Positions 2,928 to 41,844 of a stretch of 64,000 nt of DNA are shown here, piece after piece; position 1 is the stretch's first letter, and each line of letters opens with the position of its first letter. The stretch covers positions 1 to 64,000 of the IMG/VR virus record IMGVR_UViG_3300032038_000062, one strand, 5' to 3'. A model generated the notes under the pieces. That model was not told where the DNA came from. It saw only the letters and a list, made by a program, of their open reading frames with translations, and made no database searches. This stretch comes from a virus. The translations under genes were made by a program, and so were the position numbers.

Positions 2928-3403
2928 TATTCCTCACTTCCTTTTCCTTTCTTTTCCGTTTTTGCGCTCTTAACAATTTGAATAAGATTTTTCTTTTGGC
3001 GCGTAGTGAGATTTTGGAAAGATTCTAGAACTTCGCCAAAGATAAGGTAAGCATCCTTGGGAGTAGTTGAAATCTTAAAACGAGTTTCTCCTTCCTCAAT
3101 AATTTTGGTGAGTTTCTTCTTGAGTTCGAGAGCGGTTTTTTCTTCTTCTGTTCCTTCCTCTAAAATTTTTCGCTCCGCCGCTAAATCTTTTTCTTCTTCC
3201 TCTTTCGTATATTCTATTTTTTCTTCTGTTATAATAGGAATATTGAGAAAGCACGCGACGCCTAAAAAGCTAAGCTCGTCTAACTCTAAAATTCCCTTTA
3301 AAAAGCTATCAAAAAGTTTTTGTTCTTTCTTCTTTCTTTCTAATACTTTCATAATACTATTTTGTTTCCTCCTTCTTTTTTCCTCCCCTAATCTCTTTCT
3401 CAC
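2927..3403 (-). CDS. Hypothetical highly charged (K/E-rich) protein
   Basis: 158-aa ORF; start overlaps the upstream gene's stop (ATGA). Confidence 0.4.
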   Translation of the reverse strand: MRKRLGEEKRRRKQNSIMKVLERKKKEQKLFDSFLKGILELDELSFLGVACFLNIPIITEEKIEYTKEEEEKDLAAERKILEEGTEEEKTALELKKKLTKIIEEGETRFKISTTPKDAYLIFGEVLESFQNLTTRQKKNLIQIVKSAKTEKKGKGSEE

Positions 3404-4688
3404 AACTCTTACAACGATTTGAGAATCCGTCTTTCGCTCTTCCTTTCCTCATAAAAAAGTTTGAATCGAGAAGGAGCGTTCTGCCGCAGCGCGCGCAAGT
3501 TTTGAAATTTTCGGGGAAGAAAATATTTCCTATGACTAAGTAATGAAGTTCTGCCGCTTCGTTAATTTTTTTGATGATTTGTTGACGAAAAATTGTTGAA
3601 ATATAGTTGACGGTATAAGAGCGTGAGTATTTTTCGTTAATAAAGTCTGCGATTTTTTGGTTTGGATATTTTTTGATTTTAAGAGAGAGAATATCTCGGT
3701 GAATTGGCGTTAAGTCCGCCATACTAATATAGAAGTTGAGAGTGTCGAGAAGTTCTTGACTAAGGCCTTCGACTTGTGGGGTTTGGGCGGAGTCCTCGAT
3801 ATCGTAGTAGGAAAGAAAAAGTTGGTAAACGTGTTCGAGTTCTCGAAAATCGAAGAAAAGAGGATTTTCTTTCTCGTTGCGCGACCAGTAGATTTGGGAA
3901 ATAGAGGCTAGTTCTTTTTCGGAGAAAGACTTGGGGTCAAGGTTATGGAAATCGGAAAAGAGTTTTTTTGAGGTTTGGTCTTTCTTTTGAAAGATGCCAA
4001 GTGGATAGACTGGGATATCGTAATCGAAAGTTAGGAACTCGGGATGGAATTGAGGTTGCGGAAGAATTGATTGGAGAGGTTCAGAGTAGGAATCGCGAAG
4101 AGAGAATTGTTCTCGGCGCTTTTCTACGAGAAGGTGGCGAAGTTTAAGATATTGGAAAGGATTAAGGGACTTGGCGCGAAGTTCAAGTTTTTCTTTTTCC
4201 TCGTCGGAAAAACGAGAAAGAAGTTCAGAACGGGGAGGAGTCTTTCTCTTCCCACTCTTAATATCGTAGTAGTTTAGGAGAAGATCGAGAGAGTCGATTT
4301 CTAGAAAGAGTTCGGAGAATTTTTCTTTTAGGGGAGTGGGAGCTTTTAAGAGAGCTTCCTCTCGATTAAAGGTTTCTTTCTTAATTTTGAGTGGGGGAGA
4401 AGAAGGAGATAGGATTACTTGTTCGTTAAAAGTTGGGGTTTCGAGAAGAGCGTCTAAAGATTCTTCTTCGTTCTTTCTATTCCAAGTCTTATTTTTAGTT
4501 TCGATATTAATTTCTTTTTTTTGGACTAGGTTTTTTCCGTCTTTTTCTTTTCCCCAAAGTATATAGTTAGCACAAGTTTCTTTCTCTTCGGGAGTTAAAG
4601 AGAAGTTAATTGAGTTTAGGTAGTTATGAAGAAACTCGGTGCGTTCTTCGATTGTGTCTATTGAGAAGTTTAGTTTAAGTCTATTCAT
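3357..4688 (-). CDS. Hypothetical protein with C-terminal zinc ribbon (CARCG...CKSCEK)
   Basis: 443-aa ORF, first gene of the leftward operon, RBS AGGAGG upstream. Confidence 0.5.
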   Translation of the reverse strand: MNRLKLNFSIDTIEERTEFLHNYLNSINFSLTPEEKETCANYILWGKEKDGKNLVQKKEINIETKNKTWNRKNEEESLDALLETPTFNEQVILSPSSPPLKIKKETFNREEALLKAPTPLKEKFSELFLEIDSLDLLLNYYDIKSGKRKTPPRSELLSRFSDEEKEKLELRAKSLNPFQYLKLRHLLVEKRREQFSLRDSYSEPLQSILPQPQFHPEFLTFDYDIPVYPLGIFQKKDQTSKKLFSDFHNLDPKSFSEKELASISQIYWSRNEKENPLFFDFRELEHVYQLFLSYYDIEDSAQTPQVEGLSQELLDTLNFYISMADLTPIHRDILSLKIKKYPNQKIADFINEKYSRSYTVNYISTIFRQQIIKKINEAAELHYLVIGNIFFPENFKTCARCGRTLLLDSNFFMRKGRAKDGFSNRCKSCEKEIRGGKKKEETK

Positions 4689-5899: not shown

Positions 5900-6139
5900 T
5901 TTGTTTTTCTCCTTTACTTAAATAAAAATGTTTGGTTTTTGTGCTTTCGCTGCGCTTATTCTATCAGAAAAAAAGACCTTTTACAAGTATTTTCTTGTTT
6001 AGTCAATAATTAAATATTGCACTTTATTAAAACCGCAAGATAGTATTCGTCAATATACACAAAATGAAGTCTAACAAGTCTAAACGGTCTAAAAATGGCT
6101 TATCTATGCGGTTTTAGACCTATTAAGTCTAATACTAAT

Positions 6140-6168
6140 TTGCATTTATCGGGATAATGTGGTATAAT
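6140..6168 (+). promoter_or_regulatory. First early promoter, TTGCAT-N17-TATAAT
   Basis: -35 at 6140-6145, 17-bp spacer, -10 at 6163-6168, extended TG. Sits after the divergent intergenic region. Confidence 0.55.
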
Positions 6169-6191
6169 AATAAGCGAAATGGGGGATTAAA

Positions 6192-6419
6192 ATGAAAATC
6201 TTTGTGAAAAATGACAGTAAGAAAAAGTATTACAATAATGTAATAAACCGCTTAAATAATTACAAAAATGTAATAGAAAAGTTACAAAATGCCCTTAAAA
6301 TATTACAAAAAAGTTACAAGGTTGTAATAAGTATCTCCCTCTGGGCGCTCGACCGGTGTCTGCCGGACAGGTGCGGGCGTATGCCCTCAGTGGCGTCCCG
6401 TGTCAGTATATACGTCTAA
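6192..6419 (+). CDS. Hypothetical small protein. The 3' half runs through a GC-rich hairpin island.
   Basis: 75-aa ORF with RBS GGGGGA. Coding status of the GC-rich second half is uncertain. Confidence 0.4.
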   Translation: MKIFVKNDSKKKYYNNVINRLNNYKNVIEKLQNALKILQKSYKVVISISLWALDRCLPDRCGRMPSVASRVSIYV

Positions 6420-6638
6420 AGGAGCTGCGTTTGGGGACCTGGGAGCTGCGTTTGGCAGCGCGGGCAGCTGCGTTTCAAAAGAAGCTACGCTTTAAAGGGA
6501 GCTACGTCTAAGCGGAGCGTTGCCGCTGTAGGAGCTACAATTTTAGACTATTAAAGTCTAAGAGGAAAAAATAAACTATTGACTTTTTTATAAAAGAGTG
6601 ATATAATAATTATAGAATAAAGAAAGGGGATAAACCTA

Positions 6639-6905
6639 ATGGCAAGATACAAACTTACTTTTACAGACACAGAAACTGGTACAACTTATTTGCTTGATGA
6701 TAATATGCCCAGCTATGACAGCGCGGTTTTTGCCGCTTTGGATTATGTCGCGGACGGCGCAGTCAAAGCGGGCGAAAGTGGCGACACTGCCGCAGAAGTA
6801 AGGCTTTTTAACGCTGGACTTTCCATGGCTATAGAGTTCGCCGGAATGGCTGGGCTTGACTGCGCGAGTTGCTGCGGCTTTACCATCACAAGGAAAGGAG
6901 AATAA
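6639..6905 (+). CDS. Hypothetical early protein
   Basis: 88 aa, RBS AAAGGGGA, preceded by palindrome plus promoter. Confidence 0.55.
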   Translation: MARYKLTFTDTETGTTYLLDDNMPSYDSAVFAALDYVADGAVKAGESGDTAAEVRLFNAGLSMAIEFAGMAGLDCASCCGFTITRKGE

Positions 6906-7037
6906 AAGAGATTGCGCCAAGCGCAATCTTTCTGCCCTTAGGCTTCTAAAGTCTAAATTATTCTACTTTTAATCTTGACAATATTATTATAGTATGATAT
7001 AATATAGATAAAGTAAAAGAAAGGAAAAAGAGTAATT

Positions 7038-7298
7038 ATGGTTTATGTAATGACGTATCATACGCCTGTGGGCAACTTTTTGAGTGCTTGGAGTTCAAGG
7101 GACGCCGCTATTGAAGCTGTTTACACAATGATTGTAAATGGATATAAAGAAGCAAAGGCAGAAGGAAATGACAAAGCGGCAAACGAATTTTATGATATGG
7201 GATTGAAAGCTAATAAAGCATTTGCCGCTGGCAAGAATGACTTTGAGAGATGGCAGATTATTCCCTTGGAGATGGATACATTAGTTCAAGACGACTAA
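7038..7298 (+). CDS. Hypothetical early protein
   Basis: 86 aa, RBS AAAGGAAAAAGAG, own promoter. Confidence 0.55.
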   Translation: MVYVMTYHTPVGNFLSAWSSRDAAIEAVYTMIVNGYKEAKAEGNDKAANEFYDMGLKANKAFAAGKNDFERWQIIPLEMDTLVQDD

Positions 7299-7326
7299 GG
7301 TTATAGGTGACCATAACCTTTTTTCT

Positions 7327-7381
7327 TTAGACTTCTAAAGTCTAAGCAGAGATTGACAAAAGAAAAGAGATATGATATAAT
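7327..7381 (+). promoter_or_regulatory. Palindrome TTAGACTTCTAAAGTCTAA (7327-7345) plus early promoter TTGACA-N17-TATAAT (7353-7381)
   Basis: Representative of about 21 such units. Read directly. Confidence 0.7.
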
Positions 7382-7407
7382 ATGGATAGAATAAAGGAGG
7401 AGATATT

Positions 7408-7764
7408 ATGAAAGAAAAGAAAAAGAAAGAGAAAGATAACTTCCGTTTCTTTTTCATGACTATAAGTATACTTACTGCTGTAGTTGTTATTCTTGTGGGA
7501 TTTGTCGTAGTGATTTTGGAGTATAACACATCAATAGCGAGAATAAAAGTAAACATCTATCCGCTTTTAACCACAGTCACAGGAGTAGACAGAGATAAAG
7601 ACCTCGTAACCGTAGAAGATAATAACGGCTTTATCTGGCAGTTCGAAGGCGCAGATGATTGGGAAGAAGGCGACTTATGTAATTGCCTTATGGATAGCCA
7701 AGGAACAGAAAAAATTTTTGATGATGAAATTATAATGACAAAATATGAAAGCGGCGCGAGGTAG
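7408..7764 (+). CDS. Hypothetical membrane protein (one TM)
   Basis: 118 aa, RBS AAAGGAGGAG, hydrophobic segment ILTAVVVILVGFVVVIL. Confidence 0.55.
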   Translation: MKEKKKKEKDNFRFFFMTISILTAVVVILVGFVVVILEYNTSIARIKVNIYPLLTTVTGVDRDKDLVTVEDNNGFIWQFEGADDWEEGDLCNCLMDSQGTEKIFDDEIIMTKYESGAR

Positions 7765-7904
7765 CGCCCTTTCTTTCTTATTTTAGTTTAGACTTCTAAA
7801 GTCTAAGATTTTCTTGGAATTTTTTGGAAAAAATTTTTTGGAATTTTTCTTAAAATATATTAATTTCCTAAAATTAAGGGTTGACATTTTCCCATAATTA
7901 TGGT

Positions 7905-8100
7905 ATAATATAGACAATGAAAGAGAGAGAGAAGGGAATGATTCCAATGTGGTTGTAATTCACTAAACAATTCAATCAATAAACCATTCGATTGATAAAC
8001 CAGATGTACCAGACAGAAAGGGTTAAAGCAATGGCAAGAGATTCTCCCAATTAAGATAATATTGATATTTTGCTACGGAGGGGAATAATCCCCTTCTTTT
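7905..8100 (+). ncRNA. Candidate small non-coding RNA (promoter-to-terminator unit with no ORF)
   Basis: Early promoter GGGTTGACA...TGGTATAATATAGAC at 7868-7905. About 180 nt with only a 13-codon ORF. Strong terminator GGAGGGGAATAATCCCCTTCTTTTTT at 8073-8100. Confidence 0.45.
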
Positions 8101-8263
8101 TTATGTATTTTTAGACTTCTAAAGTCTAAGGACAAAAAATTATTTTGAAAAAGTAGTTGACTTTTTTATAACTCTATGATATAATATAGATACAGTCAAG
8201 GGAGATAGAAACCGACTGAATATAAAATTTGGGTGGCGACCGTCGCTAAAGGAGTTTTTATAA

Positions 8264-8616
8264 TGGCAGAAAAGAAGTACACACAGAGAGATTTTCTCAC
8301 AGATGTAATTAATGGAGTATTTAACGAAACCGTGACCGGCTACGCTCAGGAGCGCCTCAATAAGCTCGACGAGAAGAACGAGAAGCGCAAGGCAGAAACT
8401 TCTGCTAATCAGCTTAAAAACGCCCAGCTTTTGGAGGACTTCGTAACATTCATCACCGAGCAGGAGGAGCCGCAGACCACAACCGAAATTGCTAACCACT
8501 TCGGCTTGTCAACTCAGAAGGTTGCCCCGATTATGGCTAACGGCGTAAAGACCGAGCGCGTGACCGAAACCACGAAAACGGTCAACAAGAAGAAGTACAA
8601 GGCATACACCGCCTAA
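8264..8616 (+). CDS. Winged-helix DNA-binding protein, paralog A
   Basis: 117 aa from ATG 8264 with RBS AAAGGAG. C-terminal TTTEIANHFGLSTQKVAPIMANGVKTERV resembles a wHTH recognition helix plus wing. Paralog of 11769..12116. Confidence 0.6.
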
Positions 8617-8802
8617 GAAAGGAAAGGGTTACAAGTTTGTAACCCTTTTTCTCTTTTCCCTCCTTAGACTTCATATGTCTAACATATTTTTTATATTTTT
8701 AATAAAATATTAGTAATTAATTTGTATAATTTTTTGACTTTTATAGAAAAAACAATTATAATAATAGTAGAAAGAATGGAAAGAAAGGGAGGTTATAGCT
8801 CA

Positions 8803-8973
8803 ATGATTTGCAAAGTCAAGGAAAGTTTTGAACTATCAGAAATAGAGAAAAAAGTTTATGCTGATTTCCAAGAAATTCTAATTCAAATGAAAGAGGTTGC
8901 AACTGTTTCTGATACAAGACATTTAATTGAAACTATTTATTGTGACTTAGTAACTTTAATACCTCAGGTTTAG
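8803..8973 (+). CDS. Hypothetical small early protein
   Basis: 56 aa from ATG 8803 with RBS AAAGGGAGG. The upstream part of the 8722 ORF overlaps the promoter. Confidence 0.45.
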   Translation: MICKVKESFELSEIEKKVYADFQEILIQMKEVATVSDTRHLIETIYCDLVTLIPQV

Positions 8974-9075
8974 ACTTTAGAAGTCTAAGAAAATAGTATT
9001 TTTTCAAAAAAATAATTGACAAATAAAATTTTTTATGATATAATAATTATAGAAAATTGAAAGGAGGCTATTTTA

Positions 9076-9468
9076 ATGGCTACATCAAAAACTGCTTTGC
9101 GTGAAAAAGTGAGAAATTTTTATCTTGATAAAATCACAAAATTTCTTGACGGCGAGGGCGAAGAAATTTTGATGATTAAAACAAATCAATTTTGTTTTCC
9201 TGTGGTTGATGATGAAGGGAATGAATTGTTTATAAAAGTTGTTGTTTCTGTACCGAACGGCTCGAAGGACAAGAACGGTGCTACAATTCCCTTTGACGGC
9301 TACGGAGAGGCAATTGGTTATGAAACTGAGAAAAAGCAAAAAGAGGAAAAGAAAGCAGAGAAGGCAAAGAAAAAAGCCGAAAAAATGGAGCGTGACAGAT
9401 TGGAACGCCAGAGAAAGAAAGAACAGCAGGCAAACAAAGAAAAATACAGAGAGGGAAAAGGGGCATAA
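9076..9468 (+). CDS. Lys-rich early protein, paralog A (C-terminal K/E/R tail ending KGKGA)
   Basis: 130 aa. Paralog of 14235..14597, sharing the start of the N-terminal domain and the tail. Confidence 0.6.
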   Translation: MATSKTALREKVRNFYLDKITKFLDGEGEEILMIKTNQFCFPVVDDEGNELFIKVVVSVPNGSKDKNGATIPFDGYGEAIGYETEKKQKEEKKAEKAKKKAEKMERDRLERQRKKEQQANKEKYREGKGA

Positions 9469-9578
9469 AAACCCCTTTTTTCTCTAAAGGAATTTTAGAC
9501 TTCTAAAGTCTAAACAAGGGTTGACTTTTCTTTTATTGTATGATATAATATAACTACAGTAAGAAAAGGAGTGATTAA

Positions 9579-9779
9579 ATGTATATTGTAAAAAGACCGC
9601 AAGTTGTTTTAACAACTAAAGACCTTCAGGCAATCCGCACAACTATGCTGATATTAGATGAAGTTCTCGACAAGGACGATAACCTTGTGCTTGATATTGA
9701 TACTTCTTCAATAGCAAGGGCTTATGAAACTTTATGCGAGTTTGTTAAAGATTGCGAGATAGATGAGGAGGAAGAATAA
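9579..9779 (+). CDS. Hypothetical acidic early protein
   Basis: 66 aa, RBS AAAAGGAG. Confidence 0.5.
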   Translation: MYIVKRPQVVLTTKDLQAIRTTMLILDEVLDKDDNLVLDIDTSSIARAYETLCEFVKDCEIDEEEE

Positions 9780-9960
9780 AATGATGATTATTTGCGCAAT
9801 TTTTATTGCTGTCGGCATTATCGCTACGGTTGTCACCGCTATTAAGATTGATTTAAGTCACGACCCCACGCCGCCGCTGATTTTGTTTTTCTTTATAAGC
9901 GCAATCGTTACATTAAGCGCTATTGTCAGTTTTATCGTTGGTCATTTTACAGGAGTATGA
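9780..9960 (+). CDS. Small membrane protein (two TM)
   Basis: Start MMII with RBS GAGGAGG in the stop region of the upstream gene (translational coupling). Confidence 0.5.
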
Positions 9961-10101
9961 AGGTAAAACTTCATACTTTTTTTTACTATCTGTTTAGACT
10001 TCTAAAGTCTAAACTTTAATAGCAAGAGAAAAAAATTTTTTGAAAATGTATTGACTTTTTTATAATACTATGATATAATATAAATACAGTAAAGAAAGGA
10101 T

Positions 10102-10560
10102 TTGATAAACTTGAAAAGAAAAATTTGGTTCGATATGGATGGAACAATCGCTAACCTGTACGGCGTGGAAAATTGGCTTGACGATTTGAGGGCAGAAGTC
10201 CCACGACCGTACAAAATCGCAAAAGCAAATGTTAATTTGTCCCTTCTGGCTCGTTATCTCAACAAGTTGAGGGCGGGCGGCTATAAAATCGGCGTTATTA
10301 GTTGGACTTCCATGAAGTCAAGCCGAGAATATGAAGAAGAAGTCGCCGCCGCAAAAATTCATTGGCTTATCAATCACCTCCCTTCTGTTTGGTTTGATGA
10401 AGTTAATATTGTACCCTACGGCACAGAAAAAAATCTTTTCAATAAAGGGCGCGACCTGCTTTTTGATGATGATATCAGAGTAAGGGAAAAATGGACAGGC
10501 GAAAGTTATCCTCCCGAACAGATTTTCGACGTACTGCACAACTTGATTTCGGCGCTTTAA
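10102..10560 (+). CDS. HAD-superfamily 5'(3')-deoxyribonucleotidase-like hydrolase
   Basis: DMDGT motif I (IWFDMDGTIANLY). Size and layout resemble NT5C-type nucleotidases. The start may be TTG at 10111. Confidence 0.55.
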   Translation: MINLKRKIWFDMDGTIANLYGVENWLDDLRAEVPRPYKIAKANVNLSLLARYLNKLRAGGYKIGVISWTSMKSSREYEEEVAAAKIHWLINHLPSVWFDEVNIVPYGTEKNLFNKGRDLLFDDDIRVREKWTGESYPPEQIFDVLHNLISAL

Positions 10561-10672
10561 TGCGCTGAAATCTTTTTAGAAAATTTAGACTTCAAAAGTC
10601 TAAGAAAGAATAGAAAGGGGTTGACTTTTCTATAATTGTATGGTATAATATAGATAAGAAAGGAGGAGAAAT

Positions 10673-10912
10673 ATGAATATTCAATTAATCAGTAATGTAA
10701 AAATTAATTTAGAACCTTCAGAACTTAATGCTATAAATACTACAAAAAAAGTTTTAGAAAGAATTGAAGAAATTATTGATAGCGTCAAGAATGCCAATTT
10801 TTGGGAGTTTTTAAGCGAATATTATGATAATGATATTATAGAACTGCTTGACGATTTCCAACAAGATGATAGGTTAGAACGCCGCATTAAAGAATATCTC
10901 TGGGAGATATGA
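10673..10912 (+). CDS. Hypothetical early protein
   Basis: 79 aa, RBS AAAGGAGGAG. Confidence 0.5.
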   Translation: MNIQLISNVKINLEPSELNAINTTKKVLERIEEIIDSVKNANFWEFLSEYYDNDIIELLDDFQQDDRLERRIKEYLWEI

Positions 10913-11037
10913 CGACGAGGAAGAAGATTTTTAATCTTCTTCTTTTTTCTTTAGACTTCAAAAGTCTAAACTATAATTGACAAAAAATTTTATTTATGAT
11001 ATAATATAAATACAAAAAAGGAAAGCTGGGAGAAAAA

Positions 11038-11166
11038 TGAAAGAAAAACTTAACGAAATCGAAAAAGAAATTAAAGAAAAAATGGAAGAAAGCATATATA
11101 ATGACGATATTTATATTACTGTAACTATCGTTTTCGAAGTATTACACTCTATATTAGACGATTAGG
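11038..11166 (+). CDS. Small early protein (42 aa)
   Basis: Own promoter TTGACA..TGATATAAT at 10978-11013, RBS AAAGGAAAG, ORF below the 60-aa track cutoff. Confidence 0.4.
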
Positions 11167-11270
11167 CGGTCGCCGCTTTGTGATTTAGACTTCTAAAGTC
11201 TAAATTTTTATTGACCTATTAAATATATTATGATATAATATAAATGTAATAAAGAAAGGAGATTGTTTTA

Positions 11271-11582
11271 ATGTGTAAAAAAACTAAATATAAAAATTAT
11301 CGAATTGGAAAGTATCTTTTCACTGTAGAAATAAAAAAAGGCTGTGACTGTTTTGGAGATTATTTTTACATCACCATAAGAGATAGACACGACGCGCCGC
11401 GGAACTTTTTTGAGAGAATTAAACTAAAATTTAAGAACGAATATGCTATTGGAGATTCTTGCTGGCGCCCACTTTTTGACAAAAAAAATTTTGAGCGCTT
11501 TATCCTTGATAAGTTAGATTTTATTGTAGACAATAAATTTAACTTAGAAGAAGCAAACATTTTATGGGAAAATCTCGAATGA
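11271..11582 (+). CDS. Hypothetical early protein
   Basis: 103 aa, RBS AAAGGAGA. Confidence 0.5.
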   Translation: MCKKTKYKNYRIGKYLFTVEIKKGCDCFGDYFYITIRDRHDAPRNFFERIKLKFKNEYAIGDSCWRPLFDKKNFERFILDKLDFIVDNKFNLEEANILWENLE

Positions 11583-11768
11583 GATTTTCTTTTTGATTTT
11601 CTTTTAGACTTACAAAGTCTAAACCCCTAAATTTTTTTTGAAAAAAGTATTGACTTTTTTATTAAAATAGTTTATAATATACTTGTAAGGTTGAGAAAGG
11701 AAAGAAACCTTAATGAAACCTACAAAATAAAAATTTGGGTTGCGACCTACGCAAGAAAGAGGTTTATT

Positions 11769-12116
11769 ATGGCAGACAAGTACACTCAGAGAAATTTTTT
11801 GACAGACGTTATCAACGGCAATATTACCGAACAGGTGACCGCCTACGCCGAGGAAAGACTTGCGAAACTTGACGAGAAGAACGAAAAGCGCAAGGCTGAA
11901 ACCTCCGCCAATCAGCTCAAAAATATCCAGCTCGGCGAGGATATTGTCGCCTTCGTTACCGAGAACGGCGCGCAGACTACTTCCGAGATTGCAAGACAGT
12001 TCGGTGTTTCTACTCAGAAGATTGCGCCTATCACCAACGCACTTGTGAAGGAAGGCAAGCTGACCGAAACCACAAAGACGGTAGACAAGAAAAAGTATAA
12101 GGCGTTTACAGTTTAA
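11769..12116 (+). CDS. Winged-helix DNA-binding protein, paralog B
   Basis: 115 aa from ATG 11769. About 60% identical to 8264..8616, with a conserved leader and stem-loop upstream. Confidence 0.6.
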   Translation: MADKYTQRNFLTDVINGNITEQVTAYAEERLAKLDEKNEKRKAETSANQLKNIQLGEDIVAFVTENGAQTTSEIARQFGVSTQKIAPITNALVKEGKLTETTKTVDKKKYKAFTV

Positions 12117-12237
12117 CCGCCGAGGGGTACGCAAGTACCCCGACTTTTTTTAGATTTTCTTAGACGTTGTAAGTCTAAGATTAAATTGACTTTATTTTAT
12201 TTTATGGTATAATATAAATAATGAAGGAGGTAATATA

Positions 12238-12636
12238 ATGAAAATTCAGTATATTGCAAATGACGGAAAAATTTTTGATAATGAGTTTGACTGTCGGGAA
12301 TATGAGTCAAAAAAACAAGTAGATGAATTTCTCAATAAAAGAGAGCTAATCTTCTTGTCACGCTCAGGAGAAGTTCTTTTCGGAGAGATTGACGATTGCG
12401 CCGAGAGAGCTACTTATATTTTTGTTAATAGCGAGGCGGCACTTCAAGCTCTTTGGGGAGAAAATGAATGTCAGCGAGAAATCCGCCCACCCGAAGAAGG
12501 ATATTGGTATTATGATTATGAGTATGAAACCTGGAGAAGCATGAAAACTCAGGTTGAAATATTAGAAAATGAATTAGCTGAACTCAATAAAATTTATGAC
12601 CGCTTTGATTATCTTATAAGAAAACCTCAAGACTGA
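12238..12636 (+). CDS. Hypothetical early protein
   Basis: 132 aa, RBS GAAGGAGG. Confidence 0.5.
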   Translation: MKIQYIANDGKIFDNEFDCREYESKKQVDEFLNKRELIFLSRSGEVLFGEIDDCAERATYIFVNSEAALQALWGENECQREIRPPEEGYWYYDYEYETWRSMKTQVEILENELAELNKIYDRFDYLIRKPQD

Positions 12637-12747
12637 GGTTTTCTTTTTATTTTATTCTTAGACTTCTAAAGTCTAAAGTTAAATTGACTTTTTTAATCTT
12701 CTGTGATATAATATAGTTACAGTAAAGGAAAGAGAAAGGAAAATAAA

Positions 12748-12990
12748 ATGAAAGTAAAAACTAATAAATTTTGGGAAATTATCAACTATCTGTGTTTGAT
12801 TGGTCTTGTTATCGGTCAAATTACCGTAGGCTATGCTTACATCTTTGCGCAAATTATCTATCTGATTTGTAATACCGCCTCCGTTATTCGTGATATTAAA
12901 TTGCGGTTGCCGCCCTCTAATATTGTTAGGGACGCTTGCTTTACTGCAATTACTATTGGCTTAATTATTATCCGAGCGTTTTTCGGCTAA
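12748..12990 (+). CDS. Small membrane protein (two TM)
   Basis: 80 aa, RBS AAAGGAAAA. Confidence 0.5.
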   Translation: MKVKTNKFWEIINYLCLIGLVIGQITVGYAYIFAQIIYLICNTASVIRDIKLRLPPSNIVRDACFTAITIGLIIIRAFFG

Positions 12991-13215
12991 AATATCCTCC
13001 TTTACTTTATAGGTAGGCGTGGGCAATAGTCCACGCTATCCTATTAAAATTAGTTTAGACTTCCAAAGTCTAAGCCCACTCGTTGGGCGGTTAGCATAGG
13101 CTAACTTTTATTTTCTTTGAAAAAACTATTGACAAAACCGAAAAAATATGATATTATATATATGTCAGTTAGAGAGCGAAGGCAAACCTAAATTGACAGA
13201 AAGGAAAGTGATAAT

Positions 13216-14110
13216 TTTGAATTTTGAAAACAAAATTGACCGAAGAAAAAAATATTATTTGGTTTTTGATTGTGAAACCGCGACTTTGCCCTTCGCGGCA
13301 ACCATTGAAGAACCAAAAGACAAACAAAAAATTGCTATTGCTAAACCATTAATTTATGACTTGGGATGGCAGGTAATTGACCGCAAAGGGAATGTATATT
13401 GCCGCCGCTCGTATTTAGTCAGCGAAATTTTTTCCGTTCCTGCGGTTTTTAATACCGCGTATTATGCAAGCAAGCGCCCGATTTATCTTGATAAATTGGC
13501 AAAAGGTGAAATTATCCTGACCGATTGGAAAACAGCCACTGCAAAACTAGAAGAAGATTTACAAAAGGTTGAAGCGGTCGGCGCTTATAACTCAATGTTT
13601 GACTATAAAAAAGCAATTCCATTTACAGAAAAATATATCAAGATGTTATATTCTCCATACTATTATAAATGGGAAGAAAAGCAAATTGAGCATTGCAAGC
13701 ACATTTTATCAACGCCATATTATAAAAGTGATAATGAATTTAACCCTGAGATTTTCGAATTTAGGGATAAACAATATGCACTTTTTGACCTTTGGGGGCT
13801 GAGTTGCCGCCACCTCTTAAACAATAATGAATACAAACAAACTTGCATTAATAACGAATGGAAAACGGCAAGCGGGAAATTTTTCAAAACAAGCGCAGAA
13901 ACCGCATTCAGGTTTTTAACAAAAAACAATGATTTTATAGAAAGTCACACGGCTATTGAAGATACTATAATTGAGAGCCAAATTTTGACCGAAATTATAA
14001 AGCGCACAAAAAACAAATTTGAATTGGGGATTATTTATTTTCCCTTCCGTGAACTCGGAACAGTTAAAGATTTTGAAAACACACACGACAATATTTTTGA
14101 TTTATTCTAA
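13216..14110 (+). CDS. DEDDh-family 3'-5' exonuclease (DnaQ-like), paralog A
   Basis: Exo I LVFDCETATLP, Exo II YNSMFDYKKA, Exo III HTAIEDTIIES. Start TTG or GTG near 13207-13216 after RBS AAAGGA. Conserved leader shared with paralog B. Confidence 0.7.
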
Positions 14111-14234
14111 AAGAAAAAGGTTACAGAAATGTAACCTTTTTCCTCCAAAACTACCTTAGACTTTGTAAGTCTAAACCCTATTTGACTTCTCTATAATTAT
14201 ATAGTATAATATAGATAATAAAGGAGGTAATAAT

Positions 14235-14597
14235 ATGGCAAGTCGTTCTCAATTAAGAGCTAAAATCCGTCAAAAATATCTAACCCAAATTCGTGATTTT
14301 CTCAAATCACAAGGCGAAGAAGTTTTACTGACAAAAAGTAACCAACTGGCGATTCCAACCTGTGATGACGAAAACAACGAAGAAACACTTACAATTACTT
14401 TTGCTGTCCCTCTCGGCTCTAAAGCAGATAATGAACCTTTTGACCCATACACCGCTGCGGAAGTTTACGCACAAAATACAGAAAATAAAAGGGTTGAGGC
14501 TGAAAAGAGAGCAAAAGCAAAAGCAGAAAAAATTAAAAGAGATAAGGAGTACAGAGAAAAACAAAAAGCAAACAAAAAGAAAGGAAAAGGCGCATAA
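14235..14597 (+). CDS. Lys-rich early protein, paralog B
   Basis: 120 aa; same architecture and KGKGA end as 9076..9468. Confidence 0.6.
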   Translation: MASRSQLRAKIRQKYLTQIRDFLKSQGEEVLLTKSNQLAIPTCDDENNEETLTITFAVPLGSKADNEPFDPYTAAEVYAQNTENKRVEAEKRAKAKAEKIKRDKEYREKQKANKKKGKGA

Positions 14598-14788
14598 GCC
14601 TTTTCTTTTTAGAAGAATTTAGACTTTAGAAGTCTAAATCTTATGCTGCGGCGGTTAGCATAGACTAACTAAAAAATTTTTTATAAATTTATAAAAAAGT
14701 ATTGACAAATTAAAAAATCTATGCTATAATTGTATTGTCAGTTAGGGAAAGACGTTAAATCTAAATTGACAGAAAGAGGTTGATAATT

Positions 14789-15670
14789 TTGAATTTTGAA
14801 AAAAAACTTGACCGCCGCCGCAAATACTACCTTGTATTTGATTGTGAAACGGCAACTTTACCCTACGCGGCAAATTTTGAGGGTAAGGCAAGACAGGCAA
14901 TTTCTATTGCTAAACCATTAATTTATGATTTGGGTTGGCAAGTGATTGACCGTCAAGGCAATATTTACCGCCGCCGTTCGTACCTTGTTAGCGAAATTTT
15001 CAGCGTCCCTGCGGTTTTCAATACTGCATATTACGCAAGTAAACGTCCGATTTATCTCGAAAAATTAAATAATAACGAAATTATCCTGACCGACTGGAAA
15101 ACAGCCACCGCAATATTAGAAAAAGATTTGCAAGAGGTTTGCGCCGTTGGTGCTTATAATTCAATATTTGACTTTAAAAAAGCGATACCATTTACAGAAA
15201 GATATATAAAAGCGTTGTACTCACCGCACTATTATAAATGGGAACGGCGGCAAAACGAAATCTGCGACCGAATCGCAAGCGGAGAAATTCAAGAGAATAA
15301 TCAGACTTTTGACCCAGAAAATTTTTTCTTTAGAGAAAAAAATTATCCGTTGTTTGACCTTTGGGGCTTAAGTTGTAAACACTTATTAAATAATGATGAT
15401 TATAAAAAATCTTGTATTATGAATAAGTGGGAAACGGCAAGTAAAAAATATTTCAAAACTTCGGCGGAAACTTCATTTAGATATTTAACAAAAAATGATG
15501 ACTTTGAAGAAGCGCACACAGCTATTGAAGATACAATAATTGAGAGCTTAATTTTTGCCGAAATTGCAAAACGTACTAAAAATAAATTTGAAATGGGAAT
15601 TATTTATTTTCCGTTTAGAATTTTAGGCACTGTCAAACAATTCAAGGAACTAAACGATATTTTCGATTAA
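14789..15670 (+). CDS. DEDDh-family 3'-5' exonuclease, paralog B
   Basis: About 70% identical to paralog A; motifs LVFDCETATLP / YNSIFDFKKA / HTAIEDTIIES. Start TTG at 14780 or 14789. Confidence 0.7.
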   Translation: MNFEKKLDRRRKYYLVFDCETATLPYAANFEGKARQAISIAKPLIYDLGWQVIDRQGNIYRRRSYLVSEIFSVPAVFNTAYYASKRPIYLEKLNNNEIILTDWKTATAILEKDLQEVCAVGAYNSIFDFKKAIPFTERYIKALYSPHYYKWERRQNEICDRIASGEIQENNQTFDPENFFFREKNYPLFDLWGLSCKHLLNNDDYKKSCIMNKWETASKKYFKTSAETSFRYLTKNDDFEEAHTAIEDTIIESLIFAEIAKRTKNKFEMGIIYFPFRILGTVKQFKELNDIFD

Positions 15671-15798
15671 AGAAAGAAAAGGTTACAGAAATGTAACCTT
15701 TTCCCCCCCAAAATTATTTTAGACTTTGTAAGTCTAAATCCTATTTGACTTCTCTATAATTATATAGTATAATATAGATAATAAAGGAGGCGAAGATA

Positions 15799-16074
15799 AT
15801 GGTAGGCTATAAAATTATGAAAAATTTTGATAATTATAGATACACTTATACAGAAACAGTAGCAATTTGCTTATCTTTTGAAAGGGCAATACAATATCTT
15901 ATTGAAGAATGCGGCTTAGATGAAAATTATATCTATTCTGATTTTTATGGAAAAACCACATTAAAAGACGCATTCGGTAAAAACTGGTTATCAGAATTAA
16001 TTAATAATAAAATAACTTATTTTTCTTTTGAAGATTGTGATTATGAGATTGAAGAATGTAATATTTTAGAATAG
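15799..16074 (+). CDS. Hypothetical early protein
   Basis: 91 aa, RBS AAAGGAGG. Confidence 0.5.
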   Translation: MVGYKIMKNFDNYRYTYTETVAICLSFERAIQYLIEECGLDENYIYSDFYGKTTLKDAFGKNWLSELINNKITYFSFEDCDYEIEECNILE

Positions 16075-16360
16075 GGCACTCAGTGCCCCTTTTTATTTTA
16101 GACTTACGAAGTCTAAACTTTTCTAACCTTAGACTTACAACGTCTAAACTCATCAAATTTTCTCTCCCTCGTCAAACTTCTCACTATCTCGCGCCCAGTC
16201 ACTTCGTGTGTGTGTCCCCTAGTCTCCCTTTTCTAGCTTTTCTCCTGAAATGAGCTACGTTTTAAAATTTGAAATTATAAGGAAAAAGCGCTATAATATA
16301 TATAGAAAGTTAAGAAAGAATTAAAAGACTTTCAATCTATAAAAAAGAAAGGGAAACTAA

Positions 16361-26751: not shown

Positions 26752-28035
26752 TTACGGAAAGATTCCTGCATCTCTTCTGTATCCTCGCTTATATTCGTGG
26801 GGAAAGACAACTTCACCAATTCCATAGATATGATTCCTCCAAGAACTTACTATTAAAGCCACACTATATAATACTAAAGCAACGCAAAATACAACTTCAT
26901 AATTAAGTCCATTTTGTAATATAATTGCAGTAGTATTATTACCAGTTAATCCAGCAATAGCCCAAGCACTAAGCGCCAGTCCGTGGATTTCACTTACTTT
27001 TGAAAGTCCAAAATACTCTGTTAATAAGGCTGGTAATGTACTAAAACCGCCACCATAGCCAGCATTAACAACCAAAAGTAAAAGAACAATTATAAATGGT
27101 AGTATAGCTGAACTTCTAAATATAAGTGTAGAAATCAGCATAAAGATACAGCTAATAAAGATAATTTGATAAATTGTTTTTCTCGTTTTACAATGGTCAG
27201 ACAAGGTTGAGTAACCGATTCTGCCGCCAGCGTTAAATAAAGCAGTAATCATTGGAATTATAGCAGTCGCCGCAGCTAATCCAGTTAGATAAATATTGAT
27301 AATTTGTGTTTCATAGCTTATCAACATTAAACCACAATGGATATTAATAAAGAAGATAAGCCAAATTCTTCTAAAGTACCTATTCTTAAACATACTCAAA
27401 GAAAACTTTGGTATTTCTTTACTTTCAACCCAATCAATCGGTTTCTCTAATAAGAAATGACCGGTCATCATTATAATAAAATAAAAACCGCCTAAAATCA
27501 AGAACATTATCCAAATTCCAAACTGTGCGAGCAGCCAAGTCATAATGGGTGTGGCTATGGCTTTAGCTAAACCAAAACCAGCAATAGAAATGCCTGTTGC
27601 TAAACCCTTATTATCTTTAAACCATAGCATTAATGTTTTAACTGGTGAAAGATAACCTATTCCTAGTCCTATTCCCATTAATACACCATAGGATAAGTAA
27701 ATTCCTATAAGTGCTGGAATACCTTTTAATAATAGAATTGATAAACCAGTTCCTATCATACCACCGCTAAAGCATATTGCGGCGACAAGAGAAGATTTAT
27801 GAACATCTCTCTCAACATATCGTCCTCCAAAAGCCGCGGACATTCCCAAAAAGAAAATTGCTATTGAGAAAGCCCAGCCAACTGCAAATGGAGAAAGATT
27901 AACGTATTGCGCTATTTGGTCTTTAAAAGTAGACCAACAATATACTGTTCCTATTGAGCAGTGGATTAATAATGCTGGTATCGCGCCATTTAATATTTTA
28001 TTCCGTGTCATTATTCCTCCTTTATTCATATTCAT
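26752..28035 (-). CDS. MFS-type transporter (12 TM, OFA-like)
   Basis: 427-aa polytopic protein with MFS-like hydropathy periodicity. Confidence 0.65.
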   Translation of the reverse strand: MNMNKGGIMTRNKILNGAIPALLIHCSIGTVYCWSTFKDQIAQYVNLSPFAVGWAFSIAIFFLGMSAAFGGRYVERDVHKSSLVAAICFSGGMIGTGLSILLLKGIPALIGIYLSYGVLMGIGLGIGYLSPVKTLMLWFKDNKGLATGISIAGFGLAKAIATPIMTWLLAQFGIWIMFLILGGFYFIIMMTGHFLLEKPIDWVESKEIPKFSLSMFKNRYFRRIWLIFFINIHCGLMLISYETQIINIYLTGLAAATAIIPMITALFNAGGRIGYSTLSDHCKTRKTIYQIIFISCIFMLISTLIFRSSAILPFIIVLLLLVVNAGYGGGFSTLPALLTEYFGLSKVSEIHGLALSAWAIAGLTGNNTTAIILQNGLNYEVVFCVALVLYSVALIVSSWRNHIYGIGEVVFPHEYKRGYRRDAGIFP

Positions 28036-39752: not shown

Positions 39753-39826
39753 TGGCGGCGCCGCCCAGACTCGAACTGGGAAGGACAGAATCAAAATCTG
39801 TTATGTTACCATTACATCACGACGCT
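39753..39826 (-). tRNA. tRNA-Gln (anticodon TTG)
   Basis: Hand-folded cloverleaf; anticodon loop TTTTGAT; A1/C72 unpaired (Gln-like weak 1:72); CCA encoded. Confidence 0.55.
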
Positions 39827-39935
39827 ATATCTATGGACTTTCTGATAGATGGGCAACTTCAACGAGAGGTTTTCTATCTTTTTGGTATCCATTACGAGGG
39901 CTTATCCCAACCAACCTATCACGTGAGTAGGAAAT

Positions 39936-40028
39936 TGGCGACGCGGGTGAGACTCGAACTCACACACCACCGAAGTGATTACTCAGGGATTAGCAATCCC
40001 CTATCTTACCAATTAGGCTTACCGCGCC
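39936..40028 (-). tRNA. tRNA-Ser (anticodon GCT), type II
   Basis: Long variable arm, loop TTGCTAA, T-loop TTCGAGT, CCA encoded. Confidence 0.7.
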
Positions 40029-40198
40029 AAATCTTTATCTTTATAGATAATCATAGCAAAAAAGTTATATATATAATCCTCTCTTATTACAAACTTAATA
40101 TCTATAACTTCTTGCCTATCGCGCTCTAGTTTTTCAATTTCTCGGTTTATTTTGTCTTCAAGTGTAGTCGGTTTTTGTTCAATTAATATTTTTACTTT
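40019..40198 (-). CDS. Small hypothetical protein inside the tRNA array
   Basis: About 59 aa from MKVKIL with RBS GAGGTAA; preceded by a repeated 150-nt element. Confidence 0.3.
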   Translation of the reverse strand, partial: KVKILIEQKPTTLEDKINREIEKLERDRQEVIDIKFVIREDYIYNFFAMIIYKDKDLAR

Positions 40199-40366
40199 CA
40201 TGTTACCTCGCATTTATATAAAATGAAGTAGATAAGGATTTGCACCTTATATGTGCCTTAGTATCCTCCAAAAAAATCCCGTACATAACGTCTCGGTTTT
40301 AATTACAGTCTGTTACCCACAGCAACGCTTGCGTCTACCTATTCCGCCACTACTTCATATATCTAC

Positions 40367-40442
40367 TGGCACGCCTAGAGGGACTTGAACCCACAACCAG
40401 CTAGTTCGTAGCTAGCTACTCTTTCCATTGAGCTACAGGCGC
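40367..40442 (-). tRNA. tRNA-Arg (anticodon ACG)
   Basis: Anticodon stem GCTAG/CTAGC with loop CTACGAA; T-loop TTCAAGT. Confidence 0.7.
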
Positions 40443-41835: not shown

Positions 41836-41844
41836 TATATAATG

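What the first reader, a model, noticed from the sequence alone, without database searches (positions are those of the whole stretch)
7868..8100. Promoter-to-terminator unit with no ORF: candidate phage small RNA
The unit has a canonical early promoter (GGGTTGACA...TGGTATAATATAGAC) and a strong intrinsic terminator (GGAGGGGAATAATCCCC plus T6). They bracket about 180 nt whose longest ORF is 13 codons. It is the only unit of the cassette without a protein gene, so a regulatory or decoy RNA is plausible.
Basis: seen in the sequence. Interest (0 to 1): 0.6.

Follow-up and report, generated by a model that had tools for sequence, protein, structure and literature searches.

The report
Conserved phage small RNA with micro-ORFs
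An uncultivated cattle-rumen phage carries a strongly promoted, cleanly terminated unit of about 185 nt with no normal-sized gene; the unit is conserved in at least 13 related phage contigs, so it is a real but optional element, and it may encode two tiny peptides of 6 and 7 residues rather than being purely non-coding.

Summary
A perfect TTGACA-17-TATAAT promoter with a TG extension (7881-7909) and a strong terminator (8077-8102) bracket about 160 nt with no ORF of 30 codons or more. It is the only such unit among about 20 early cassettes at 6.1-16.1 kb.

The body is not junk. Homologues (83-99% identity) occur in 13 syntenic rumen-phage contigs from different samples. Usually they have their own promoter and a further structured module of about 145 nt, which I call module B. 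One other contig (L135) has the same short body-plus-terminator form as the window.

A 57-nt core (8015-8071) differs at only 2 of 57 positions from each of four diverged relatives. Neighbouring genes are only 64-80% identical at fourfold-degenerate sites. The middle of the unit drifts freely, and indels of 1, 2 and about 16 nt rule out any long reading frame.

There is no Rfam match, no conserved secondary structure and no antisense target in the phage.

Two Shine-Dalgarno-preceded micro-ORFs are conserved: MIPMWL (7938-7958) and MARDSPN (8031-8054). Six of their seven variable sites are silent.

Verdict: a real, accessory early small-RNA gene, possibly translated into micro-peptides. Its function is unknown.

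The parts
7788..7806 (.). Inter-cassette palindrome TTAGACTTCTAAAGTCTAA that precedes the unit. A second copy at 8111-8129 follows it.
   Evidence: 41 strand matches (about 22 sites) between 6114 and 16147, against 0.09 expected.
7808..7860 (+). Unusually long upstream spacer with three TTGGAATTTTT-like repeats. In relatives it belongs to the promoter of the 89-aa or 57-aa cassette.
   Evidence: the same spacer and promoter sit upstream of protein genes in L098-L107.
7881..7909 (+). Sigma-70/sigma-A type early promoter: TTGACA, 17 nt including TG, TATAAT.
   Evidence: In relatives this exact promoter drives other cassettes. The native promoter of the unit (TTGACAATCCCATAATTATATGATATAAT in L127-L135) is a close relative of it. 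This suggests the window arrangement arose by recombination between the two promoters.
7916..8103 (+). Predicted transcript of about 185-188 nt. The start is inferred as 6-8 nt after the -10; the 3' end is placed in the U-tract.
   Evidence: Inference. No expression data are available.
7920..7937 (+). 5' polypurine tract AAAGAGAGAGAGAAGGGA, which is Shine-Dalgarno-like (SD1).
   Evidence: pairing with the 16S 3' end is -9.7 kcal/mol at a spacing of 5 nt to ATG 7938 (-10.1 at 10 nt to ATG 7947). Nearly invariant in 12 copies apart from a 2-nt GA indel.
7938..7958 (+). Micro-ORF1: ATG ATT CCA ATG TGG TTG TAA, encoding MIPMWL.
   Evidence: present in 12 of 12 full copies. The four variable sites are ATG/TTG at the start, ATT/ATA, and TTG/CTG/TTA; all are silent. 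The stop codon is invariant.
7959..7990 (+). Fast-evolving spacer, including the first copy of the imperfect direct repeat ATCAATAAACCA (7975-7986; second copy 7991-8002).
   Evidence: 44-76% identity to relatives, at or below the neutral proxy. An indel of about 16 nt removes one repeat copy in L102. The whole 5' part is replaced in L111.
7991..8014 (+). Moderately conserved segment ATTGATAAACCAGATGTACCAGAC that leads into the core.
8015..8071 (+). Ultraconserved 57-nt core: SD2 AGAAAGGG (8015-8022), an 8-nt spacer, micro-ORF2, and 17 nt beyond its stop.
   Evidence: 2 of 57 mismatches to each of L099, L109, L102 and L111b, with P from 4e-4 to 5e-9 against the identity at fourfold-degenerate sites. 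The core is duplicated in tandem in L111.
8031..8054 (+). Micro-ORF2: ATG GCA AGA GAT TCT CCC AAT TAA, encoding MARDSPN.
   Evidence: present in 14 of 14 copies. Variants are AGA/AGG and CCC/CCT (silent) and AAT/GAT (Asn to Asp). SD2 scores -9.2 kcal/mol at a spacing of 7 nt.
8077..8102 (+). Intrinsic terminator: GGAGGGGA-AUAA-UCCCCUUC followed by U6.
   Evidence: It is homologous to the terminator of the 93-aa cassette in relatives. L135 has the same body-plus-terminator junction. Most relatives carry the structured module B here instead.

Best explanation
This is a genuine, optional early gene of a large virulent-type phage from the cattle rumen. A host sigma-A type promoter drives a short RNA of about 185 nt that looks like an mRNA and ends at a strong terminator. 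It encodes no protein of normal size.

The RNA has a purine-rich, ribosome-binding-like 5' end, and a 6-codon ORF (MIPMWL) sits exactly where a cassette gene would start. A freely drifting spacer follows. Then comes a 57-nt ultraconserved core that is itself a complete translation-initiation region (AGAAAGGG, 8 nt, AUG) with a 7-codon ORF (MARDSPN).

My preferred reading is that ribosomes load on both sites and that translating the two micro-ORFs is part of the function, making this a dual-function small RNA or micro-cistronic transcript. The 5' ribosome-binding tract and the 3' hairpin would also stabilise the RNA.

Shown: the anatomy, the conservation, the selection on the core, the absence of any long frame, and the codon-like substitution pattern. 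Inferred: transcription, translation, and everything about the target. The most likely setting is host takeover or counter-defence, as for the other small accessory early cassettes.
For: The promoter and terminator are real and far beyond chance.

Conservation. The body is homologous at 83-99% identity in L099, L102, L109, L111, L127-L133 and L135, which come from different samples. It always sits in the same early array, upstream of the 117-aa wHTH-like gene. The short body-plus-terminator form recurs in L135 with its own promoter.

Selection. The core at 8015-8071 has 2 of 57 mismatches to each diverged relative, while fourfold-degenerate sites of flanking genes are only 0.80 to 0.64 identical (P = 4e-4 to 5e-9). 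The spacer at 7959-7990 is at or below the neutral level.

No long frame. Indels of 1, 2 and about 16 nt are tolerated, and the only ORFs shared by all copies are the two micro-ORFs.

Coding signal. Six of seven variable sites in the micro-ORFs are silent in the real frames, against 2 of 7 and 0 of 7 in the shifted frames. Degenerate sites vary at 6 of 17, non-degenerate sites at 1 of 28 (Fisher P = 0.008).

Ribosome sites. The SD strengths and spacings (-9.7 kcal/mol at 5 nt; -9.2 at 7 nt) fall within the range of the 19 real cassette genes.

Structure. There is no conserved secondary structure (-11.5 kcal/mol consensus, 0 compensatory pairs in 11 sequences), as expected for an mRNA-like RNA.

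Precedent. Ribosome binding near a 5' end stabilises RNAs in Bacillus, including a phage SP82 RNA (PMC7509114).
Against: Only seven variable sites carry the coding signal, and the copies are related, so this is not a robust test.

The variable ORF1 positions could also be loop positions of a small 4-bp hairpin predicted there.

The 17 nt after the ORF2 stop and the SD2-AUG spacer are about as conserved as ORF2 itself (3 of 17 and 1 of 16 variable sites). A peptide cannot explain that, so some RNA-level or DNA-level constraint must also exist.

Directly translated functional peptides of 6-7 residues have almost no precedent.

No expression or ribosome data exist, and the host is unknown.

High identity of the core could in part reflect recent horizontal spread of the segment rather than selection.
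Confidence: 0.42

Rival explanations
1. It is a purely non-coding trans-acting RNA, either a riboregulator or a decoy. Under this reading the unstructured ultraconserved core is a binding surface. It contains an SD-like AGAAAGGG and a CU-rich UUCUCCC. It would pair with G-rich ribosome-binding sites of host mRNAs, or titrate a host or defence RNA-binding factor. The micro-ORFs would be incidental.
For: It has its own strong promoter and terminator. Nucleotide-level conservation extends beyond the micro-ORF into the SD2 spacer and the 17-nt 3' flank. The core is duplicated in tandem in L111, as sponge or decoy RNAs often are. The unit is accessory and sits in a hypervariable early array, which is typical of counter-defence loci. 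Phage RNA decoys are known, namely Racr (PMC10651486) and pseudo-ToxI (PMC3475682).
Against: No target was found. The longest complementarity to the rest of the window is 13 nt, while shuffles give 12-21 nt. Duplex energies with 19 early-gene leaders lie within shuffles (z from -2.1 to +1.5). There is no conserved fold or covariation and no Rfam hit. This reading does not explain why variable sites fall on synonymous positions. Host targets could not be tested.
Confidence: 0.3
2. It is a cis-acting leader or attenuator. The unit would control read-through into the next cassette (the 117-aa wHTH-like gene). Ribosomes on the 5' polypurine tract and micro-ORFs would decide whether the 5' tract pairs with the pyrimidine-rich 3' strand of the terminator (or of module B in relatives) or leaves the terminator intact.
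For: In the single-sequence minimum-free-energy fold, the 5' tract GAGAGAGAGAAGGG pairs with CCCUUCUUUUUU of the terminator. The unit lies directly upstream of the 117-aa cassette in the window, L102, L109, L127-L129, L131 and L135. In L112 and L113, module B serves as the 5' leader of a gene.
Against: The downstream gene has its own consensus promoter at 8157-8185 and is found without the unit in many relatives. The 5'-3' pairing spans 160 nt and has z = -1.88 only. No covariation is available to support it. In L099 and L111 another cassette separates the unit from the 117-aa gene.
Confidence: 0.12
3. It is a functionless remnant: a decayed cassette, or a recombination scar between similar promoters, that is still transcribed. 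Its apparent conservation would reflect recent spread only.
For: The window copy is clearly recombinant. Its promoter is that of the 89-aa/57-aa cassette and its terminator is like that of the 93-aa cassette. The array is highly mosaic, and the unit is missing from many relatives.
Against: Constraint varies sharply inside the 160 nt: the core is 96.5% identical, while the spacer is 44-76% identical. This holds across relatives whose flanking genes differ by 20-36% at fourfold-degenerate sites. No similarity to any cassette protein was found by tblastn or tblastx. The core is retained and even duplicated when the 5' half is replaced. Two architectures both keep it.
Confidence: 0.1
4. It is a DNA-level element, such as a protein-binding site, a weak factor-dependent promoter or a recombination hot spot, rather than an RNA product.
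For: The end of the core plus the start of module B (TGATATTTT-ATAGAG) resembles a degenerate -10 region plus leader of the array promoters (sequence inspection). Imperfect repeats ATCAATAAACCA and ATTGATAAACCA are present.
Against: The element is optional, so it cannot be an origin or a packaging site. The core motif does not recur elsewhere in the window. One repeat copy is dispensable in L102. The element is always embedded in the same orientation inside a promoter-terminator unit.
Confidence: 0.05

Closest known systems
Early-promoter-driven non-coding regions of large Firmicute phages, for example the lncRNA2 region of Staphylococcus Kayvirus vB_SauM-515A1 (PMC7698491)
   Same: Both are ORF-less stretches transcribed from a typical early sigma-A promoter of a large lytic phage that also carries tRNA genes. 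In both cases the function is unknown.
   Different: This unit is much shorter (about 185 nt against about 525 nt). It lies in a host-takeover-like array of mini-cassettes rather than next to the tRNAs. There is no sequence similarity, and it carries two conserved micro-ORFs.
Dual-function small RNAs (SgrS/SgrT, RNAIII/hld, SR1/SR1P; from my own knowledge, not tested here)
   Same: Both are short transcripts with their own promoter and terminator in which RNA-level and peptide-level constraints coexist.
   Different: The known examples encode peptides of 26-43 residues and have defined base-pairing targets. Here the ORFs are 6 and 7 codons and no target is known.
Lambda bar minigenes and other toxic minigenes (PMC2490762, citing Hernandez-Sanchez 1998, PMC1170711)
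   Same: Both consist of a Shine-Dalgarno site, an AUG, a few codons and a stop, on an abundant early phage transcript.
   Different: Minigene toxicity works by sequestering the tRNA of the last sense codon. Here the last codon of ORF1 changes among UUG, CUG and UUA, which are read by different tRNAs, while the amino acid is kept. Selection therefore appears to act on the peptide or the frame, not on a tRNA.
RNA anti-CRISPRs (Racr, solitary repeat units; PMC10651486)
   Same: Both are small non-coding units in phage genomes, accessory, and possibly decoys.
   Different: Racrs are defined by mimicry of a host CRISPR repeat. No repeat-like conserved hairpin is present here. The only hairpin (7972-7995) is lost in L102, L109 and L111, and the host repeats are unknown.
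Pseudo-ToxI antitoxin mimics of type III toxin-antitoxin systems (PMC3475682)
   Same: Both are promoter-to-terminator RNA units in a phage. In both, repeat copy number varies between relatives.
   Different: ToxI-type antitoxins are tandem repeats of about 36 nt. Here there is a 12-nt imperfect repeat with a 16-nt period in the poorly conserved part, and a single duplication of the 57-nt core in one contig.

Membership tests
Any Rfam 15 family | A covariance-model score at or above the gathering threshold | tested here: not met
   (whole window, gathering threshold) found only tRNAs and one skipping-rope RNA elsewhere. One search (7780-8260, E up to 10) gave only chance-level hits, the best at 21 bits against a threshold of 45. 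Searches found nothing in the homologous loci.
Stand-alone bacterial or phage sRNA gene (generic kind) | Own promoter and intrinsic terminator | tested here: met
   The native promoter is also present in 11 relatives.
Stand-alone bacterial or phage sRNA gene (generic kind) | No conserved protein-size reading frame | tested here: met
   indels of 1, 2 and about 16 nt occur, and only ORFs of 6 and 7 codons are shared.
Stand-alone bacterial or phage sRNA gene (generic kind) | Sequence conservation above the neutral level | tested here: met
   (the core has 2 of 57 mismatches; P from 4e-4 to 5e-9).
Stand-alone bacterial or phage sRNA gene (generic kind) | A detectable stable transcript | not testable with these tools
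   No transcriptome data are available for this uncultivated phage.
Base-pairing riboregulator | Complementarity to a target beyond chance | tested here: not met
   Searches covered phage targets only. Host targets are not testable because the host is unknown.
Structured non-coding RNA | A conserved secondary structure with covariation | tested here: not met
   the consensus is -11.5 kcal/mol with 0 compensatory pairs in 11 sequences. By contrast, module B of the relatives has 3 compensatory pairs.
Micro-ORF / small-protein gene | A start codon with a Shine-Dalgarno site at functional spacing, and a conserved stop | tested here: met
Micro-ORF / small-protein gene | An excess of synonymous over non-synonymous change | tested here: inconclusive
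   6 of 7 variable sites are silent and Fisher P = 0.008, but there are only seven sites and the sequences are related.
Micro-ORF / small-protein gene | Evidence of translation | not testable with these tools
   This needs ribosome profiling, toeprinting or mass spectrometry.
Racr (RNA anti-CRISPR) | Sequence and structure mimicry of a host CRISPR repeat | not testable with these tools
   The host and its repeats are unknown. Two GTDB pattern scans, one with a core motif and one with a module B motif, found nothing.
Type III antitoxin mimic (pseudo-ToxI) | Tandem repeats of about 34-37 nt that form the functional unit | tested here: not met
   there is only a 12-nt imperfect repeat, present twice, and it is dispensable in L102.
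Lambda bar-type minigene | An effect tied to one tRNA through a fixed last sense codon | tested here: not met
   the last codon of ORF1 is UUG, CUG or UUA.

The most novel reading that the evidence does not exclude
The unit is a two-cistron 'micro-peptide gene'. The phage would synthesise two mature-size peptides, fMet-Ile-Pro-Met-Trp-Leu and fMet-Ala-Arg-Asp-Ser-Pro-Asn, directly inside the infected cell with no export or processing. They could act as small effectors, for example as intracellular mimics of imported 5-8-residue signalling peptides sensed by RRNPP/Rgg-type receptors of Firmicutes, or as nascent-chain effectors on the ribosome. This would be a new class of phage takeover factor and would be among the shortest functional genes known.
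Probability: 0.1. Interest if true: 0.85.

Novelty: new member of a known kind. Interest (0 to 1): 0.5.

Why it matters
Phage-encoded small RNAs are known as a category, but few have been characterised. Almost none come from uncultivated phages of gut or rumen Firmicutes.

This unit is a clean, testable case. It is 185 nt long with textbook expression signals, and it is optional among close relatives. A 57-nt core is conserved far above the neutral rate. Two ORFs of 6 and 7 codons evolve as coding sequence would.

If the micro-ORFs are translated, the unit would push the lower size limit of functional phage genes. If they are not, the unit is a new unstructured regulatory or decoy RNA family placed where counter-defence genes usually lie.

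The work also uncovered a second, structured RNA module (module B) that these phages combine with the first or use as a gene leader. This suggests a modular RNA toolkit in the early region.

Tried and rejected
- **Rfam.** The gathering and permissive searches on the window and on four related loci gave no family for the unit or for module B.
- **INPHARED phages, blastn distant mode.** There was no match for 7700-8300. The long form from L099 gave only a 33-nt chance hit.
- **IMG/VR and GTDB genome scans.** The scans with core or module B motifs found nothing. The IMG/VR palindrome scan found a single related contig, which lacks the unit.
- **Protein-based locus search.** Using the two flanking proteins in IMG/VR returned nothing.
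- **Remnant of the gene that the same promoter drives in relatives.** tblastn with the 89-aa protein, and tblastx of the body against all related loci and the window, showed no protein-level similarity. The only hits were DNA-level homologues of the unit itself. This idea is rejected.
- **Antisense target inside the phage.** Both the exact-complement scan and the duplex energies against 19 early leaders were no better than shuffles. A first full duplex scan timed out.
- **Conserved RNA fold.** RNAalifold on 4 and then 11 sequences gave a weak consensus with no compensatory pairs. The single-sequence z-score is -1.88. One apparent C-G to U-A swap in the 7972-7995 hairpin between the window and L099 is not kept in L102, L109 or L111.
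- **ToxI-like tandem repeats and a bar-like tRNA trap.** Both were considered and rejected; see the membership tests.
- **Longer in-frame extension of ORF2** (MYQTERVKAMARDSPN, 16 codons). It is not conserved: L099 has no start codon for it and L111 has a stop six codons upstream.
It is not conserved: a 2-nt GA indel puts its start out of frame in every other full-length copy.

Full report
**What is in the window**

The window is a low-GC (about 35%) stretch of a large phage. It encodes a large terminase subunit (87-1910, - strand), a sigma-factor-like protein (3357-4688, - strand) and a Ro60/TROVE-like RNA-binding protein (60364-61836, - strand). It also has 24 tRNA genes.

Between about 6.1 and 16.1 kb on the + strand lies an array of about 20 mini-cassettes. 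Each has the order terminator, palindrome TTAGACTT-N3-AAGTCTAA, near-consensus extended -10 promoter, small gene.

- The promoter class TTGAC-N15-TRNTATAAT occurs 19 times in the window, against 0.00 expected.
- The palindrome gives 41 strand matches, against 0.09 expected.
- The architecture resembles the host-takeover early regions of large Firmicute phages. That comparison is my own knowledge and was not tested.

**The observation**

The unit at 7881-8102 is as described.

- The promoter is TTGACA, 17 nt with TG, TATAAT.
- The terminator has an 8-bp G+C-rich stem (-13.3 kcal/mol) followed by T6.
- It is the only cassette without an ATG ORF of at least 30 codons.
ORFs of 16 codons (ATG start) and 20 codons (TTG start) at 7992/8004-8054 are slightly longer.
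- An independent ENA assembly (L001) is identical across the unit.

**Relatives**

Nothing similar is in INPHARED. IMG/VR holds one related contig.

A metagenome scan with the promoter sequence returned 10 related loci. In these, the same promoter and its peculiar upstream spacer drive protein genes: an 89-aa, a 57-aa or a 93-aa-like gene. At first sight the body therefore looked unique.

A sensitive blastn then found the body two or three cassettes further downstream in two of those loci, L099 (89%) and L102 (83%). Look-ups through the neighbouring 117-aa and 93-aa proteins added L109, L111, L127-L133 and L135. L134 has the 5' end and then a scaffold gap.

The samples are largely cattle-rumen metagenomes, judging by record names such as STEW19. 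Ten contigs that share an identical 117-aa protein lack the unit and carry the 57-aa cassette instead. L136 and L137 have a different ORF-poor unit in the same slot. The element is therefore accessory.

**Architecture across relatives**

In 11 relatives the body (I call it module A) has its own promoter, TTGACAATCCCATAATTATATGATATAAT or a close variant. It is followed by a second module of about 145 nt (module B).

Module B folds into a long imperfect hairpin (-25.9 kcal/mol consensus, 3 compensatory pairs). On its own, module B forms the 5' leader of a 131-aa gene in L112 and L113.

The window and L135 have the short form instead: module A joined directly to the terminator GGAGGGGAATAATCCCC-T6. 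That terminator is homologous to the one of the 93-aa cassette.

The window promoter is a close relative of the native one (both contain CCCATAATTAT). The window also lacks the 89-aa and 93-aa cassettes that lie between the two promoters in L099 and L102. The simplest history is a deletion by recombination between the two promoters. This is inference.

In L111 the 5' half of module A is replaced. There the 57-nt core occurs twice in tandem, in the 3' region of a 128-aa gene.

**Is it constrained?**

Fourfold-degenerate sites of shared flanking genes serve as the neutral proxy. They are 0.80 (L099), 0.77 (L109), about 0.74 (L102) and about 0.64 (L111) identical to the window.

| Segment | Window coordinates | Result |
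|---|---|---|
| 5' leader plus ORF1 | 7910-7958 | 88-94% identical to L099, L109 and L102 (replaced in L111) |
| Spacer | 7959-7990 | 44-76% identical |
| Core | 8015-8071 | 2 of 57 mismatches to every relative (P = 4e-4, 7e-5, 8e-6, 5e-9) |

This heterogeneity inside 160 nt, repeated in independent lineages, argues for purifying selection rather than recent transfer alone. I cannot fully exclude a contribution from recombination.

**What kind of constraint?**

- No Rfam family matches.
- RNAalifold on 11 sequences gives a weak consensus (-11.5 kcal/mol) with no compensatory pair, so a structured RNA is not supported.
- Complementarity to the rest of the window (13 nt at most; shuffles give 12-21 nt) and duplex energies with 19 early leaders are at chance level.
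- Indels of 1, 2 and about 16 nt exclude any long frame.

Two micro-ORFs are present in every copy.

- **ORF1** (7938-7958, MIPMWL) sits about 29 nt after the -10, where cassette genes normally start. It lies behind a polypurine SD-like tract.
- **ORF2** (8031-8054, MARDSPN/D) lies behind AGAAAGGG plus 8 nt. This is the same kind of initiation region as the real 88-aa gene at 6639 (AGAAAGGGG-N8-ATGGCAAGA).
- Their SD energies and spacings (-9.7 kcal/mol at 5 nt; -9.2 at 7 nt) lie inside the range of the 19 annotated cassette genes.
- Of the seven variable sites in the two ORFs, six are silent: ATG/TTG at the start, ATT/ATA, TTG/CTG/TTA, AGA/AGG and CCC/CCT. One changes Asn to Asp.
- In the two shifted frames only 2 and 0 of the 7 would be silent.
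- Degenerate sites vary at 6 of 17 and non-degenerate sites at 1 of 28 (Fisher P = 0.008).

This is a codon-like signature, but it rests on few sites and on related sequences. The SD2 spacer and the 17 nt after the ORF2 stop are also conserved (1 of 16 and 3 of 17 variable sites). A peptide cannot explain that.

**Best explanation and rivals**

I conclude with high confidence (about 0.85) that this is a real, conserved, optional early transcription unit that makes a short RNA without a conventional protein.

On mechanism I commit, at about 0.4, to an mRNA-like dual-function RNA. Its two ribosome-binding sites are used and its micro-ORFs are translated. The 5' ribosome-binding tract would also act as a stabiliser, as described for Bacillus and the phage SP82 RNA (PMC7509114).

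The rivals are:

- a purely non-coding regulator or decoy acting through the unstructured core (0.3);
- a cis-acting attenuator of read-through into the 117-aa gene (0.12), suggested by the pairing of the 5' polypurine tract with the terminator's 3' strand in the single-sequence fold;
- a neutral remnant (0.1);
- a DNA-level site (0.05).

The biological role is inferred from location and optional presence only. Host takeover or counter-defence are the obvious candidates.

**Comparison with known systems**

The unit works most like the small group of phage early non-coding or dual-function transcripts. Examples are the early-promoter-driven non-coding region of Kayvirus (PMC7698491) and, from my own knowledge, dual-function sRNAs such as SgrS/SgrT.

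It is not a member of any curated RNA family.

- It fails the defining features of ToxI-type antitoxin mimics: it has no tandem repeats of about 36 nt.
- It fails those of bar-type minigenes: the last sense codon is not fixed.
- It cannot be tested against Racr, because the host CRISPR repeats are unknown (PMC10651486, PMC3475682, PMC2490762).

**Verdict**

I class it as a new member of a known kind (phage small RNA genes), with a moderately interesting twist.

Noticed in passing
window 6114-16147 (about 22 sites, for example 7327-7345, 7788-7806, 8111-8129): A 19-bp palindrome, TTAGACTT-N3-AAGTCTAA, sits between the terminator and the -35 of almost every early cassette (41 strand matches against 0.09 expected). 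It is equally conserved in all related contigs. It is probably an operator for a shut-off or activator protein, or a recombination site that allows cassette shuffling.
   Followed up: partly
L099:6283-6385, L109:3735-3837, L102:3250-3352, L111:3109-3211, L127-L133; also L112:1322-1425 and L113:140-243: A second conserved RNA module ('B', about 100-nt core, absent from the window) follows the unit in most relatives. It also serves as the 5' leader of a 131-aa gene in two contigs. It forms a long imperfect hairpin (-25.9 kcal/mol consensus) with 3 compensatory pairs, and its pyrimidine-rich 3' strand could pair with the downstream SD. It has no Rfam match and is a candidate new cis-regulatory RNA.
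   Followed up: partly
window 44432-44512 (-): A skipping-rope RNA (RF02924, 56.5 bits against a threshold of 36.7) sits inside the phage tRNA array. The function of this motif class is unknown (PMC5737381).
   Followed up: no
window 60364-61836 (-): A 490-aa protein with DUF2828 and DUF7788 domains (phrog_850, 'RNA-binding protein'), which is Ro60/TROVE-like. Such proteins usually partner with small Y-like RNAs. I did not look for a partner RNA. The candidate unit lies 52 kb away and gave no hit to any Rfam family.
   Followed up: no
window 39753-48500 (-): An array of 24 tRNA genes. One, at 43764-43837, was called by ARAGORN with a 4-base anticodon (gtca, 'tRNA-???') but scores 50 bits as a tRNA in Rfam. 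It may be a frameshift-suppressor-like tRNA or a miscalled one.
   Followed up: no
window 8186-8262 (+) and the homologous leaders in L002, L109, L110, L117: The 5' leader of the 117-aa wHTH-like gene is long (about 75 nt). Its 3' part (AAATTTGGGTGGCGACC..CGCTAAAGGAG) is highly conserved and contains a GGCGACC/GTCGC hairpin abutting the SD. This may be a translational operator.
   Followed up: no
window 7808-7860 (+): The spacer between the palindrome and the promoter is about 75 nt, against about 7 nt in most cassettes. It carries three TTGGAATTTTT-like repeats. The same spacer is conserved upstream of this promoter class in L099-L107, L117 and L118.
   Followed up: partly
L136:3385-3535 and L137 (same coordinates); the start of L002: In other relatives, the slot between the 93-aa and 117-aa genes holds a different promoter-driven stretch of about 150 nt. 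It is richer in G+C and has no ORF over 18 codons. It has no Rfam hit and a fold z-score of -0.9. The slot seems to collect ORF-poor units.
   Followed up: partly
window 26752-28035 (-): A 427-aa ORF with a clear Major Facilitator Superfamily domain (PF07690, E = 9e-24) lies inside the phage. This is unusual cargo for a virulent-type phage.
   Followed up: no
window 13148-14110 / 14780-15670; 8263-8616 / 11769-12116; 9076-9468 / 14235-14597: Several early cassettes are present as diverged paralogue pairs within the array (75-81% DNA identity for the first pair). This is consistent with frequent duplication and shuffling of cassettes.
   Followed up: no
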